A stretch of 64,000 nucleotides of DNA from Escherichia coli O127:H6 str. E2348/69 (GTDB taxonomy: Bacteria > Pseudomonadota > Gammaproteobacteria > Enterobacterales > Enterobacteriaceae): NCBI RefSeq assembly GCF_000026545.1, contig NC_011601.1. One strand, written 5' to 3'. Both the position numbers and the translations under genes were made by a program. This document shows, piece by piece, positions 1,795-60,860 of this stretch. How positions within the stretch are numbered: position 1 is the stretch's first letter; each line of letters begins with the position of its first letter. A model generated the notes under the pieces. It was not told where the DNA came from, did not search any database, and saw nothing but the letters and a program-made list of their open reading frames with translations.

Positions 1795-4698
<2,904 letters not shown>

Positions 4699-44493: not shown

Positions 44494-45330
44494 GTGAAAA
44501 AAACACAGCAAAAAGAAATCGAGAATGTGACAAATATCACAGGTGTTCGTCAAATTGAGTTATGGCGGCGTGATGATTTACAACACCCACGGTTAGATGA
44601 GGTGGCGGAAGAAGTTCCCGTTGCGCTGGTCTACAACGGCATTTCGCATGTGGTGATGATGGCGTCGCCCAAAGACCTTGAGTACTTTGCGCTCGGTTTT
44701 TCGCTTTCCGAAGGAATTATCGAAAGCCCGCGCGATATCTTCGGCATGGATGTCGTTCCTTCCTGTAATGGCCTGGAAGTACAAATTGAGCTTTCCAGCC
44801 GCCGCTTTATGGGGTTGAAGGAACGCCGCCGGGCGCTGGCGGGACGTACGGGCTGTGGCGTATGCGGTGTAGAACAGCTTAACGATATCGGTAAACCGGT
44901 GCAGCCGCTGCCGTTCACCCAGACGTTTGATCTCAACAAACTGGATGATGCATTACGTCATCTCAATGATTTCCAGCCAGTGGGGCAACTGACTGGTTGT
45001 ACTCACGCCGCTGCATGGATGTTGCCATCTGGCGAACTGGTCGGCGGGCATGAAGACGTGGGTCGCCATGTGGCGCTGGACAAACTGTTAGGCCGCCGGT
45101 CACAAGAAGGGGAAAGCTGGCAGCAAGGTGCGGTGCTGGTTTCCAGCCGTGCCAGTTATGAAATGGTGCAAAAGTCGGCGATGTGCGGCGTAGAGATTTT
45201 GTTTGCGGTGTCTGCCGCGACCACACTTGCTGTAGAAGTGGCTGAGCGCTGTAATCTGACGCTGGTGGGCTTTTGTAAACCGGGTCGGGCAACGGTTTAT
45301 ACCCATCCGCAGCGTTTGGTTCATAATTAA
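44494..45330 (+). CDS. fdhD: Formate dehydrogenase sulfurtransferase/accessory protein FdhD
   Basis: 278-aa ORF with conserved CGVCG motif; divergently transcribed from fdoGHI-fdhE. Confidence 0.93.
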
Positions 45331-54151: not shown

Positions 54152-54598
54152 TTATGAGCTGAGGGTTTGATTTAACAAAGCAAGCACCTGGTCGGCGTCG
54201 CCCTGTCGCAGTTGGTTGATAAAATCCTGGTGGATAATTTTGCGACATAGTGTGCCGATGAGTTTGACCTGATCCTCTTCGCCGCTTTGCGGTACGCCGA
54301 GGCAGATCCAGCAATTGACGTCTTCGCCATCGCTGGCTTGCCAGTCAATGGCTTGTGTTTTACGTGCGAACAGCACGAACGGTTGTTTAACGCAGGCGCT
54401 TTTACCGTGCGGTACGGCGATGCCGGAACCAAAACCGGTGGAGTGCATTTTTTCGCGCAGTAGTAACGTTTGCAGGAATTGGTGTGAGTCGGTGATAAAA
54501 CCGTTTTGTAACGCTATTGTCGCCAGTTGCTTCAGAATGGAATAAGCGCCGTTGCCCTGAATATTCAGGTCAATACAGCTTGCAGTAAGTGCTGCCAT
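54152..54598 (-). CDS. frvA: PTS fructose-like EIIA component FrvA
   Basis: 148-aa ORF with the PTS EIIA(Fru/Mtl) phosphorylation-site histidine region (FGSGIAVPHGKS). Confidence 0.9.
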   Translation of the reverse strand: MAALTASCIDLNIQGNGAYSILKQLATIALQNGFITDSHQFLQTLLLREKMHSTGFGSGIAVPHGKSACVKQPFVLFARKTQAIDWQASDGEDVNCWICLGVPQSGEEDQVKLIGTLCRKIIHQDFINQLRQGDADQVLALLNQTLSS

Positions 54599-55073
54599 TA
54601 TCAGACTCCATGAAAAATATTTCAGTTAATTGTAATCGCGGGGCGGGTTTGTGATGAGCGCGGATATGTCACGAAGTCGCGACAATATAAAGCAGAGTGA
54701 AAGGTAAAATTTGCGGTACCAGACACATATCAGTAGATAAAATAAACTTTGTGAATAAAGTATTATTATTTAATGATTTTGTGAATGTTTAAATGCCCAG
54801 GATATCTTGCCATAACGTTATTTATATTTGTGGCTTATGAGTCAGCGTGAATTATATCTAATATTTTTTACGATATTTAGTTAAAAACGGCACTATTGTT
54901 ATATTCCTCACATTCCAGGAAATCAGCGGATTTACTCATATTATGCAGCGGGATACTATCCATCGGCCTGCTGAAGTTGGATTAAAAATTCGAAAGTGCA
55001 CACCTTATATTTCTCTATATACGTATTCCTTTTGGAAAGCGTAGGGTCTCCTTTATTTCAGGGAACGTAAATA

Positions 55074-56468
55074 ATGAAAAAATCGACATTATCTTTAGCC
55101 ATCGGTTTATTATTGGCATGTAGTACCGGTATGGCAAAAACACAGCATTTAACGCTGGAACAACGCATGGCATTGCTGGAAGAACGCCTGGAAGCGGCAG
55201 AAATGCGGGCAGCAAAAGCAGAGGGGCAGGTTAAACAGCTTCAGACACAACAAGCCGCCGAGATCCGCGAAATTAAGATCGCACAGGGCAACACGCCGGT
55301 AAACGGTCAATCAACGACGGAGTCAGAGAAGAAAAACGCCACCCCGCCTAATCTCCTGCTTTCAGGGTATGGCGATTTAAAAATCTACGGTGACGTAGAA
55401 TTTAATATGGATGCGGAAAGTAATCATGGCCTGCTGGCAATGACCAACGCTGATGTGAATAGCGATCCCACTAATGAACAGTGGAATCTCAATGGTCGTA
55501 TTCTGTTAGGTTTTGATGGTATGCGAAAACTGGATAATGGCTATTTCGCTGGGTTCTCCGTACAACCGCTGGGGGATATGCACGGTTCAGTAAATATCGA
55601 TGATGCGGTTTTCTTCTTTGGCAAAGAAAACGACTGGAAGGTCAAAGTAGGCCGTTTTGAAGCCTACGATATGTTCCCGCTGAATCAGGATACCTTTGTT
55701 GAACATTCCGGTAATACTGCGAACGATCTTTATGACGATGGCAGCGGTTATATCTATATGATGAAAGAGGGCCGCGGGCGTTCTAACGCTGGCGGTAATT
55801 TCCTCGTCAGCAAACAACTCGATAACTGGTATTTTGAATTAAACACGTTACTTGAAGACGGAACATCTTTATATAATGACGGTAATTATCATGGACGCGA
55901 TATGGAGCAGCAGAAAAATGTTGCTTATCTGCGTCCGGTAATTGCCTGGTCGCCGACGGAAGAATTCACCGTTTCCGCAGCGATGGAAGCGAACGTAGTA
56001 AATAATGCTTATGGTTATACCGATAGCAAGGGTAATTTTGTCGATCAGTCCGATCGTACCGGCTATGGTATGAGCATGACCTGGAATGGCCTGAAAACGG
56101 ATCCGGAAAATGGCGTCGTGGTTAATCTTAATACCGCCTATTTAGATGCTAATAATGAGAAAGATTTCACTGCCGGGATTAACGCGCTGTGGAAACGTTT
56201 CGAGCTGGGTTATATCTACGCACATAATAAGATTGATGAATTTAGTGGCGTGGTTTGTGATAACGATTGCTGGATTGATGATGAAGGAACATACAACATT
56301 CACACCATTCATGCGTCTTATCAGTTCGCTAATGTGATGGATATGGAGAACTTTAATATTTACCTCGGCACGTATTACTCCATTCTGGATAGCGACGGCG
56401 ATAAGATACACGGCGACGATAGTGATGACCGTTACGGCGCACGCGTTCGCTTTAAATACTTCTTCTGA
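55074..56468 (+). CDS. Putative outer-membrane glycoporin (ScrY/RafY-like) with N-terminal coiled-coil
   Basis: 464-aa ORF with a signal peptide (MKKSTLSLAIGLLLACSTGMA), a charged heptad-like stretch (LEQRMALLEERLEAAEMRAAKAEGQVKQLQ), Gly/Tyr/Asn-rich beta-strand-like body and C-terminal aromatic ending ...RFKYFF typical of outer-membrane beta-barrels. Confidence 0.65.
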   Translation: MKKSTLSLAIGLLLACSTGMAKTQHLTLEQRMALLEERLEAAEMRAAKAEGQVKQLQTQQAAEIREIKIAQGNTPVNGQSTTESEKKNATPPNLLLSGYGDLKIYGDVEFNMDAESNHGLLAMTNADVNSDPTNEQWNLNGRILLGFDGMRKLDNGYFAGFSVQPLGDMHGSVNIDDAVFFFGKENDWKVKVGRFEAYDMFPLNQDTFVEHSGNTANDLYDDGSGYIYMMKEGRGRSNAGGNFLVSKQLDNWYFELNTLLEDGTSLYNDGNYHGRDMEQQKNVAYLRPVIAWSPTEEFTVSAAMEANVVNNAYGYTDSKGNFVDQSDRTGYGMSMTWNGLKTDPENGVVVNLNTAYLDANNEKDFTAGINALWKRFELGYIYAHNKIDEFSGVVCDNDCWIDDEGTYNIHTIHASYQFANVMDMENFNIYLGTYYSILDSDGDKIHGDDSDDRYGARVRFKYFF

Positions 56469-56508
56469 TGAAAGGGCGGTGCTGGATATTATCCGGCACC
56501 GCAACTCA

Positions 56509-56823
56509 TTAAGGCAGGTAAAACACTTCTTGCAGTTCGCTACTGACTGGGCTGTTATCCGCATTAGCGGGCATAACGTCGATCATATATTTCCACCAAC
56601 GTTGGCAAACATCTGTACTGGCAACCGCATTCCACCGCTCTTCAGATTCAATCTCTATCGTGGCAAATAGCAGATTACGCGCTTTGTCGAGATAGATGGC
56701 GTAGTTATGCGCACCGTGAGATTTCAGCACTGCTTCCAGTTCCGGCCAGATGGGATTATGCCGACGCTGATACTCTTCGTGGGCGTCGGGGTTTACCTGC
56801 ATGACAAAGGCTTTGCGGATCAT
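56509..56823 (-). CDS. rhaM: L-rhamnose mutarotase
   Basis: 104-aa [33 protein letters not shown]... recognised as RhaM/YiiL; immediately downstream of rhaD. Confidence 0.9.

Positions 56824-57850: not shown

Positions 57851-60860
<3,010 letters not shown>

What the first reader, a model, noticed from the sequence alone, without database searches (positions are those of the whole stretch)
54599..56468. Glycoporin-like outer-membrane protein with coiled-coil N-terminus inserted between the frv and rha operons
The 464-aa ORF has a signal peptide, a heptad-like charged N-terminal segment and a beta-barrel-like body ending in aromatic residues, the architecture of ScrY/RafY-type sugar porins. I do not recall any gene between frvA and rhaM in K-12, and the 470-bp upstream region is AT-rich. 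Its position beside two sugar-utilisation operons suggests an accessory uptake function, possibly for rhamnose-containing oligosaccharides, but the substrate is unknown.
Basis: partly seen in the sequence, partly recalled or inferred. Interest (0 to 1): 0.45.

Follow-up and report, generated by a model that had tools for sequence, protein, structure and literature searches.

The report
Orphan RafY-family sugar porin gene
The gene between frvA and rhaM is a chromosomal copy of the known RafY outer-membrane porin, already annotated, carried by about half of complete E. coli genomes and absent from K-12, so it is ordinary.

Summary

It is not an insertion. Orthologues in Citrobacter, Kluyvera, Pseudocitrobacter, Superficieibacter and a Klebsiella occupy the same slot, convergent with rhaM. 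In that Klebsiella, rafR-rafA-rafB lie directly upstream. The gene is full-length in 2543 of 5426 complete E. coli genomes; 2828 have the K-12-type empty junction. dN/dS is about 0.07, so it is maintained.

Most likely it is a passive outer-membrane channel for di- and oligosaccharides, driven by its own conserved promoter with a CRP-like box. A rhamnoside role is a minority possibility. Already known; low interest.

The parts
54599..55073 (.). AT-rich divergent intergenic region between frvA (- strand) and the porin gene (+ strand)
   Evidence: 475 bp, 34.9% G+C. The first ~160 bp are homologous to the K-12 frvA-rhaM spacer; the rest is not demonstrably so.
54897..54912 (+). CRP-like box TGTTATATTCCTCACA, conserved upstream of all same-locus orthologues
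   Evidence: The pattern TGTNA-N6-TCACR occurs 5 times in the window against 0.88 expected. It occurs exactly once in the 400 bp upstream of the porin in all 15 loci of the rha-site clade, and is absent upstream of operon-embedded relatives. The binding protein is inferred, not tested.
54931..54936 (+). Candidate -35 hexamer TTTACT
   Evidence: TTTAC lies a fixed 18 nt after the box in all but two of those orthologues (RIT691, Klebsiella sp. B345). Inferred.
54954..54959 (+). Candidate -10 hexamer TACTAT. It implies a start near 54966 and a box centre near -61.5.
   Evidence: 17-nt spacer after TTTACT. TAnnAT-like hexamers lie at the same offset in Citrobacter, Kluyvera and Enterobacter. Inferred. 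The generic scan found a different site, TTAAAA-18-TATATT at 54982-55011.
55060..55065 (+). Shine-Dalgarno-like AGGGAA
   Evidence: 8 nt before the ATG. AAGGAA is conserved in all orthologues.
55074..56468 (+). Porin coding sequence, 464 aa, RafY family
55074..55136 (+). Signal peptide, residues 1-21, with cleavage predicted after the nearly invariant Ala21
   Evidence: Sequence inspection and alignment A1; AF2 helix 3-15. No signal-peptide predictor was run.
55152..55283 (+). Periplasmic N-terminal heptad helix, residues 27-70, a Sugarporin_N-like extension
   Evidence: AF2 helix 28-70 with pLDDT about 88. PF11471 scores E=0.08 here, E<=1e-3 in 11 of 29 homologues, and E<=0.1 in all 29. Invariant E29 R31 E36 R38 L39 E43 R45 A46 A49 E50.
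55287..55364 (+). Low-confidence flexible linker, residues 72-97
   Evidence: pLDDT <50; poorly conserved.
55371..56465 (+). 16-strand beta-barrel, residues 100-464, ending in the aromatic KYFF
55656..55793 (+). Long loop between strands 5 and 6, residues 195-240, the most conserved stretch. Probably the inward-folded constriction loop, equivalent to L3.
   Evidence: It contains about half of the columns invariant across the deeper alignment A2 (E196 nearly so, D206, Y228, R236). It lies between E188-194 and E241-249. The constriction role is inferred by analogy with OmpF and LamB L3.
56478..56500 (.). 8-bp inverted repeat GGTGCTGG-ATATTAT-CCGGCACC between the convergent stop codons of the porin gene and rhaM
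   Evidence: Read from the sequence. K-12 keeps a similar hairpin next to rhaM. There is no T-run and the terminator scan did not call it. A terminator function is inferred.

Best explanation
The gene encodes a Sec-exported outer-membrane porin of the RafY family (Pfam PF16966, TCDB 1.B.15). The mature protein has three parts. The first is a helix of about 45 residues with heptad spacing, homologous to the periplasmic extension of the sucrose porin ScrY, presumed to form a coiled coil under a porin trimer. The second is a flexible linker. The third is a 16-strand beta-barrel whose long, highly conserved loop between strands 5 and 6 probably folds into the lumen.

It most likely works as plasmid RafY is reported to: a wide, passive diffusion channel that lets di- and oligosaccharides (sucrose, raffinose, maltodextrin-sized) and other small solutes cross the outer membrane. 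Inner-membrane transporters encoded elsewhere would then take them up.

At this locus it is an orphan, with no dedicated permease, hydrolase or repressor beside it. It is the ancestral occupant of the slot next to rhaM in the Escherichia-Citrobacter-Kluyvera-Klebsiella group. In some relatives that slot also holds rafR-rafA-rafB. K-12 and about half of complete E. coli genomes lack the gene.

It appears to be transcribed from its own promoter, which carries a CRP-like box in class I position, so it would be switched on when preferred sugars are scarce.

Shown here: family membership, fold, synteny, distribution and purifying selection. Inferred: trimer and coiled coil, substrate range, CRP control.
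For: Identity: PF16966 E=1.4e-155 over model positions 1-372 of 372. The protein is 78% identical to the porin that follows LacI-family, GH36, LacY-like and GH32 genes on plasmid pMS6192A-NDM. RefSeq names it carbohydrate porin.

Synteny and ancestry: the same position, convergent with rhaM, is occupied in Citrobacter spp., C. rodentium, Kluyvera, Pseudocitrobacter, Superficieibacter and Klebsiella sp. B345. The last has rafRAB directly upstream.

Maintained function: dN/dS is 0.07-0.08 within E. coli and 0.03-0.06 against other genera. The gene is full-length in 2543 of 5426 complete genomes.

Family-level sugar link: 13 of 43 species-representative loci have sucrose or raffinose genes adjacent. 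Others have trehalase plus GPH symporter, GH65 plus beta-phosphoglucomutase, mannosylglycerate hydrolase, or alpha-L-rhamnosidase. Porin clades track these contexts.

Function of relatives: RafY is cited as aiding growth on maltose, sucrose and raffinose and as a general diffusion pore. K. pneumoniae GlyP, a RafY-family porin, gave the fitness advantage seen in an ompK35/36 porin mutant once its LacI-type repressor GlyR was mutated.

Promoter: the box and spaced hexamers are conserved in 15 of 15 same-clade loci.
Against: No experiment on this E. coli gene was found in the held literature. The substrate range rests on a 78%-identical paralogue whose primary papers could not be read.

The box has TGTTA instead of TGTGA in one half. 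It also resembles the two halves of lacO1 with one extra central base, so the binding protein is uncertain. The generic promoter scan found no more sites than shuffles give, and it picked a different candidate.

Trimerisation and the coiled coil were not modelled. The AT-rich upstream region could mean the gene is largely silent in laboratory conditions.
Confidence: 0.7

Rival explanations
1. It is a rhamnoside (rhamnose-containing glycoside or oligosaccharide) channel functionally tied to the neighbouring rhamnose catabolic operon.
For: Adjacency to rhaM is conserved across at least six genera. In the NJ tree the two lineages immediately outside this clade are Budvicia and Phytobacter. Their porins are the last gene of MFS transporter - alpha-L-rhamnosidase - porin clusters. 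The Budvicia cluster is preceded by a RhaS-like AraC regulator.
Against: The gene is convergent with rhaM, so the two are not co-transcribed. Its upstream region shows no similarity to the rhaBAD/rhaSR control region beyond shuffled controls. No complete E. coli genome has DNA resembling the Phytobacter rhamnosidase gene. Inside the clade the only catabolic genes ever attached are rafRAB. The closest characterised relative is RafY.
Confidence: 0.12
2. It is a LamB/ScrY-type substrate-specific sugar porin: an 18-strand barrel with a greasy slide and saturable sugar binding.
For: The N-terminal extension is homologous to that of ScrY. TCDB-based analysis places the RafY family nearest the sugar porin family. 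In Serratia and Photorhabdus a family member occupies the position of scrY in scrK-porin-scrA-scrB clusters.
Confidence: 0.05
3. It is a functionless relic of a former raf cluster, drifting towards loss. Its absence from half of the species would reflect that.
For: It is an orphan without partner genes. It is absent from 2828 of 5426 complete genomes. An IS1-associated deletion leaves a 75-bp stump in one strain. A published survey found rafY without rafABD in about half of carriers.
Against: dN/dS is 0.07-0.08 between alleles that differ at 3.5% and 19% of synonymous sites. The reading frame is intact in all alleles examined. The promoter elements are conserved across genera. The gene is kept even where the neighbouring frv operon has been deleted.
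Confidence: 0.05

Closest known systems
RafY, the porin of the plasmid raffinose operon rafRABD-Y (pRSD2; Ulmke et al. 1997, Andersen et al. 1998, as cited in PMC4827864 and PMC4809568)
   Same: Same Pfam family over the full length and the same 464-aa size. 78% identical. Same N-terminal helix and C-terminal KYFF. Sister group in the tree.
   Different: The window gene has no rafRABD beside it and no RafR operator (CCGAAACGTTTCGG) upstream. It has its own conserved CRP-like promoter, which plasmid rafY lacks. It is chromosomal, at a fixed and ancestral position. E. coli alleles carry Cys16 in a lipobox-like LLAC.
'rafY2' of E. coli O157:H7 (PMC4809568)
   Same: It is the same gene: the O157:H7 EC4115 copy lies between frvA and rhaM and is 97% identical in protein. 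That paper already notes a rafY homologue without rafRABD.
   Different: Only allelic differences (dS 0.19).
GlyP of Klebsiella pneumoniae (bioRxiv 10.64898/2026.03.29.715108)
   Same: A chromosomal RafY-family porin. It was shown to act as an alternative channel when derepressed, with carbohydrate-related fitness effects.
   Different: GlyP is the last gene of a LacI(GlyR)-permease-hydrolase-porin operon. That corresponds to the csc-like context class here, a different clade. The window gene has no adjacent repressor.
ScrY sucrose porin and LamB maltoporin (PF02264, TCDB 1.B.3)
   Same: An outer-membrane channel associated with sugar catabolic operons. It shares the ScrY-type N-terminal periplasmic helix, PF11471.
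16-strand trimeric porins such as OprP, Omp32, OmpU, PorB, VhChiP and DcaP
   Different: Sequence identity is only 8-14%. No sequence-level match to any PDB chain was found, even with a family profile.

Membership tests
RafY glycoporin family (Pfam PF16966 / TCDB 1.B.15) | Significant full-length match to the family profile | tested here: met
   E=1.4e-155, residues 104-464 on model positions 1-372 of 372. All 29 aligned homologues match.
RafY glycoporin family (Pfam PF16966 / TCDB 1.B.15) | Close similarity to the founding member encoded after rafRABD | tested here: met
   78% identity over 450 residues to the porin downstream of LacI-family, GH36, LacY-like and GH32 genes on a plasmid. Sister in the NJ tree.
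RafY glycoporin family (Pfam PF16966 / TCDB 1.B.15) | Predicted 16-strand outer-membrane beta-barrel with signal peptide and C-terminal aromatic residue | tested here: met
   16 long strands in the AF2 model, pLDDT 81.4. TCDB lists 16 strands for the family. The protein ends in KYFF. The signal peptide was judged by inspection only.
RafY glycoporin family (Pfam PF16966 / TCDB 1.B.15) | Genetic linkage to an oligosaccharide catabolic operon | tested here: not met
   The gene is an orphan in the window: frvA lies on one side and rhaM on the other. Linkage exists for orthologues at the same site in Klebsiella sp. B345 and Enterobacter ENT03.
RafY glycoporin family (Pfam PF16966 / TCDB 1.B.15) | Forms a large diffusion channel that admits oligosaccharides | not testable with these tools
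   This needs bilayer, liposome or growth assays. The literature on RafY and GlyP is the only support.
LamB/ScrY sugar porin family (PF02264 / TCDB 1.B.3) | Match to the LamB profile | tested here: not met
   PF02264 is not among the hits at E<=10.
LamB/ScrY sugar porin family (PF02264 / TCDB 1.B.3) | 18-strand barrel | tested here: not met
LamB/ScrY sugar porin family (PF02264 / TCDB 1.B.3) | ScrY-type N-terminal periplasmic extension (PF11471) | tested here: met
   Weak in this protein (E=0.08). It scores E<=1e-3 in 11 of 29 homologues and E<=0.1 in all 29, best 6.9e-07. Modelled as helix 28-70.
LamB/ScrY sugar porin family (PF02264 / TCDB 1.B.3) | Aromatic greasy slide and saturable sugar binding | not tested
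   The lumen residues of the model were not analysed. Binding needs experiment.
cAMP-CRP-dependent class I promoter | 22-bp CRP site centred near -61.5 upstream of a weak -35/-10 pair | tested here: inconclusive
   TGTTATATTCCTCACA at 54897-54912, then 18 nt, TTTACT, 17 nt, TACTAT. The box is present in all 15 orthologous loci and the hexamers in most of them. One half-site deviates at a key G. The transcription start is not mapped.
Bacterial lipoprotein (lipobox) | [LVI]-x-[GAS]-C at the end of a signal peptide, conserved in the family | tested here: inconclusive
   E. coli alleles have L13-L14-A15-C16. From memory, this fits the PROSITE PS51257 pattern. All other genera have LLVAN with no Cys, and Ala21|Lys22 is conserved. 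No predictor or labelling was available.

The most novel reading that the evidence does not exclude
The orphan porin is a normally quiet, catabolite-controlled wide channel, present in about half of complete E. coli genomes. When expressed it could substitute for OmpF/OmpC and alter both oligosaccharide scavenging and antibiotic entry, as GlyP does in K. pneumoniae. Its presence or absence would then be a real phenotypic polymorphism between lineages such as B2 or O157 and K-12. A further twist is that only the E. coli alleles have gained a lipobox-like LLAC. The E. coli protein might therefore be a lipid-anchored porin, which would be unusual for this fold.
Probability: 0.25. Interest if true: 0.45.

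Novelty: already known. Interest (0 to 1): 0.15.

Why it matters
It matters little for discovery. The family is in Pfam and TCDB, the gene is annotated in thousands of genomes, and the O157:H7 copy has been mentioned in print as a rafY homologue lacking rafRABD.

The useful outcome is a correction. The gene is an ancestral, selectively maintained resident of the rha-flanking slot that K-12 lacks. It is not an insertion. Its barrel is of the 16-strand porin type with only a ScrY-like N-terminal helix.

If the channel proves active in vivo, its roughly 50:50 presence/absence polymorphism could contribute to strain differences in oligosaccharide use, in outer-membrane permeability to antibiotics, or in susceptibility to agents that use porins as receptors.

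Tried and rejected
- NCBIfam scan of the protein gave no family.
- PDB sequence searches found nothing relevant, with the single protein (only chance hits at E about 0.3 to dehydroquinase) or with a 60-sequence profile (no hits at E<=10).
- Rfam scan of 54400-56700 at E<=1 gave nothing.
- A repeat search for insertion signatures found only short chance pairs.
- A gapped global alignment tried to show that the 3' 140 bp of the K-12 spacer derives from the porin region. It scored no better than shuffles (75.9 against 69.7 +/- 5.1), so the breakpoint on that side is undefined.
- A small inverted repeat in the 5' leader (ATTCC-TTTT-GGAA, 55025-55038) looked as if it covaried. RNAalifold predicted no consensus structure and I dropped it.
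- The RafR operator motif derived from three rafR-rafA spacers (CCGAAACGTTTCGG) is absent from the porin upstream region.
- A test for shared RhaS/RhaR sites by local alignment with the rhaBAD/rhaSR spacer was negative.
- Literature searches by guessed O157 locus tags and by 'rafY2', 'glycoporin' and 'raffinose porin' found no functional study of this gene.
- The primary RafY paper (PMC179467) is not held.

Full report
**Observation.** It follows a 475-bp spacer (54599-55073) of 34.9% G+C. The gene itself is 45% G+C and the flanking frv and rha genes are 52-54%. The window is Escherichia coli E2348/69 at 100% identity. There RefSeq annotates the gene as WP_000749929.1, "carbohydrate porin", lying between frvA and rhaM. 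K-12 MG1655 has a 300-bp spacer and no gene at this place.

**Identity.** Pfam places residues 104-464 on the whole of PF16966, "Porin-like glycoporin RafY", at E=1.4e-155. NCBIfam has no model for it, and no PDB chain matches by sequence even with a family profile. A paralogue at 87% nucleotide and 78% protein identity occurs on plasmids and in a tRNA-Phe island. There it is the last gene after a LacI-family repressor, a GH36 alpha-galactosidase, a LacY-like permease and a GH32 hydrolase. This is the rafR-A-B-D-Y arrangement described in the literature.

The family is small. Only 229 clusters at E<=1e-3 were found among 1.84 billion representatives. Many distant members of about 350-390 aa lack the N-terminal extension.

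**Anatomy.** In an alignment of 29 homologues, Ala21 is nearly invariant and is followed by Lys or another polar residue, which fits signal peptidase I cleavage. Residues 27-60 show a 3-4 hydrophobic spacing with ten invariant charged or alanine positions.

AlphaFold2, run on a 60-sequence alignment, gave mean pLDDT 81.4 and pTM 0.72. The model has these elements:
- a signal-peptide helix at 3-15;
- a single long helix at 28-70;
- a disordered stretch at 72-97;
- a barrel of 16 long strands from 100 to 463;
- a 46-residue loop (195-240) between strands 5 and 6.

That loop holds a large share of the invariant residues. By analogy with loop L3 of OmpF and LamB (established knowledge), I infer that it constricts the channel.

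The N-terminal helix scores only E=0.08 against PF11471 (Sugarporin_N) in this protein. However, 11 of 29 homologues reach E<=1e-3 and all 29 reach E<=0.1. The protein therefore joins a ScrY-type periplasmic extension to a barrel that is not of the ScrY/LamB type.

**Not an insertion.** Orthologues at 81-85% identity in several Citrobacter species and in C. rodentium sit in the same slot, convergent with rhaM at the tail of the rhamnose operon. So do those at 83% in Kluyvera and at 73-75% in Pseudocitrobacter and Klebsiella sp. B345. The far side of the slot varies (azlDC plus an HTH gene, or frvA).

In Klebsiella sp. B345, rafR-rafA-rafB lie directly upstream of the porin at this very site. 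In Enterobacter sp. ENT03 the order is frvA, porin, rafR-rafA-rafB.

Synonymous divergence between the E. coli and the Citrobacter or Kluyvera genes is saturated (dS >= 1.9), as expected for vertical descent. No repeats or mobile-element remnants flank the gene.

Within 5426 complete E. coli genomes, 2543 carry the gene at 80% or more of the 1.9-kb query, and 2828 carry the K-12-type empty junction. The K-12 spacer is homologous to the window only over its first ~160 bp; the origin of the remainder could not be established. I conclude that presence is ancestral and that K-12 represents a loss or replacement.

The gene is not decaying. dN/dS is 0.078 against ST131 strain JJ1886 and 0.073 against O157:H7 EC4115. 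All alleles examined are intact. It is retained even in JJ1886, where frvRXBA and part of yiiG are deleted.

**What the family does.** I surveyed 43 loci from one genome per species. In 13, sucrose or raffinose genes are adjacent. The arrangements seen were:
- cscR / cscB-cscA-porin-cscK;
- scrK-porin-scrA-scrB;
- rafRAB with the porin;
- a periplasmic trehalase plus a GPH symporter;
- a PTS-GH65-beta-phosphoglucomutase set;
- mannosylglycerate hydrolase;
- MFS transporter - alpha-L-rhamnosidase - porin, in Budvicia and Phytobacter.

A neighbour-joining tree of the barrel domain groups the porins by these contexts. Family members are thus recurrently recruited as the outer-membrane component of di- or oligosaccharide and glycoside catabolic clusters.

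Published statements available to me agree. RafY is reported to raise growth rates on maltose, sucrose and raffinose. The title of the biophysical paper says it forms a general diffusion pore rather than a specific one. A 2026 preprint shows that in K. pneumoniae a RafY-family porin, GlyP, is repressed by a LacI-type regulator. When derepressed in an ompK35/36 mutant, GlyP alone accounts for the fitness gain.

**Regulation (inferred).** The upstream spacers of the same-locus orthologues are poorly conserved, apart from a few blocks. One block is TGTTA-N6-TCAC[AG], at 54897-54912 in the window. It occurs exactly once in the 400 bp upstream of the gene in all 15 loci of this clade. It is absent upstream of plasmid or island rafY and of the rhamnosidase-linked genes. 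The relaxed CRP half-site pattern occurs five times in the 64-kb window against 0.88 expected.

In most of these loci the box is followed after 18 nt by TTTAC, and after about 17 more by a TAnnAT-like hexamer. This would put the box centre at about -61.5 from a start near 54966, the geometry of class I CRP promoters (established knowledge).

Three caveats apply. One half-site has T where CRP sites usually have G. The motif also resembles the two halves of lacO1 with an extra central base. The generic promoter scan proposed another site, at 54982-55011.

The RafR operators, which I derived as two copies of CCGAAACGTTTCGG in three rafR-rafA spacers, are absent here. The rhaBAD/rhaSR control region shares nothing above shuffled background with this spacer.

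**The rhamnose idea.** Adjacency to rhaM is conserved. The two lineages just outside this clade belong to rhamnosidase clusters, one with a RhaS-like regulator.

Against it stand four points:
- the convergent orientation;
- the lack of rha-type regulatory similarity;
- the raf genes being the only catabolic genes ever attached within the clade;
- the absence from all complete E. coli genomes of DNA resembling that rhamnosidase.

I rate it at about 0.12.

**Comparison with the known, and verdict.** The gene is a bona fide member of the RafY family. It meets the profile, similarity and fold criteria. It does not show the operon linkage of the founding member, and channel activity could not be tested. 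It is not a member of the LamB/ScrY family: it has no profile match and 16 rather than 18 strands. It does share that family's N-terminal extension.

The same gene in O157:H7 has been referred to as "rafY2", a rafY homologue without rafRABD. A 2026 survey noted that about half of rafY-positive E. coli lack rafABD. The finding is therefore already known in kind and in instance. What is added here:
- the direction of the K-12 difference, which is loss and not insertion;
- the 16-strand fold assignment;
- the shared locus with chromosomal raf genes in relatives;
- a conserved candidate promoter.

Interest is low (0.15). The most novel reading still open concerns a lineage-polymorphic alternative porin with permeability consequences. 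It may be lipid-anchored in E. coli because of an E. coli-specific LLAC motif. I give that about 0.25 probability.

Noticed in passing
window 55110-55121 (residues 13-16): All four E. coli chromosomal alleles read have L-L-A-C at the end of the signal-peptide core. This lipobox-like motif has Ser at +2. Every other genus has LLVAN with no cysteine, and plasmid RafY has EYNAC. The protein may be cleaved by signal peptidase II and lipidated in E. coli only, or the motif may be incidental.
   Followed up: partly
window 54897-54912 and orthologous loci (e.g. L012, L018, L010): The reverse complement of the conserved upstream box is CGTGAGC-GA-GATAACA in Kluyvera and Klebsiella, and TGTGAGG-AA-TATAACA in E. 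coli. It closely resembles lacO1 (TGTGAGC-G-GATAACA) with one extra central base. The binding protein could therefore be something other than CRP.
   Followed up: partly
L002:7925-9319 versus window 55074-56468: Plasmid rafY is the sister of the E. coli chromosomal gene. Its dS is only 0.86, against >=1.9 for Citrobacter or Kluyvera, yet dN is higher (dN/dS 0.16). This suggests that the mobile raf operon recruited its porin from an Escherichia-like chromosomal copy and then diverged faster.
   Followed up: partly
L058 (E. coli JJ1886) 2014-2921; L003 (strain HS30-1) 3288-4077: The locus is a deletion hotspot. ST131-type strains have lost frvRXBA and the start of yiiG but keep the porin. HS30-1 has an IS1 next to a 75-bp 3' stump of the porin gene.
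   Followed up: partly
window 54152-54598 (frvA): E2348/69 frvA is only 90-95% identical to frvA in 4038 of 4207 genomes that have it. Just 6 genomes are >=99% identical. The frv-porin segment of this strain is an unusually divergent haplotype.
   Followed up: no
window 55025-55038: There is a small inverted repeat, ATTCC-TTTT-GGAA, in the presumed 5' leader. Different but still self-complementary sequences lie at the same place in Citrobacter and Kluyvera. RNAalifold predicted no consensus structure.
   Followed up: partly
window residues 395 and 399 (nt 56256-56270): A Cys-x3-Cys pair (VVCDNDCW) lies in the loop between strands at 376-387 and 405-418. Cys395 is present in 90% or more of homologues and most also carry the second Cys. 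It may be a disulfide in an external loop.
   Followed up: no
window 44526-44541: A perfectly palindromic CRP-type site, TGTGACAAATATCACA, lies elsewhere in the window. Another match at 60682-60697 lies in the rhaB-rhaS spacer.
   Followed up: no
L023:4001-10371 (Budvicia) and L020:4898-10362 (Phytobacter): These loci hold compact clusters: MFS transporter - alpha-L-rhamnosidase - RafY-family porin. Budvicia has a RhaS-like AraC regulator upstream and Phytobacter has a LacI-family gene downstream. They look like uncharacterised rhamnoside-utilisation loci.
   Followed up: partly
L031, L038, L054 (Serratia, Photorhabdus): In scrK-porin-scrA-scrB clusters the porin position is filled by a RafY-family protein. 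In the classical scr regulon a ScrY (LamB-family) porin fills it (established knowledge). This looks like non-homologous replacement of the barrel, while the N-terminal extension is shared.
   Followed up: no
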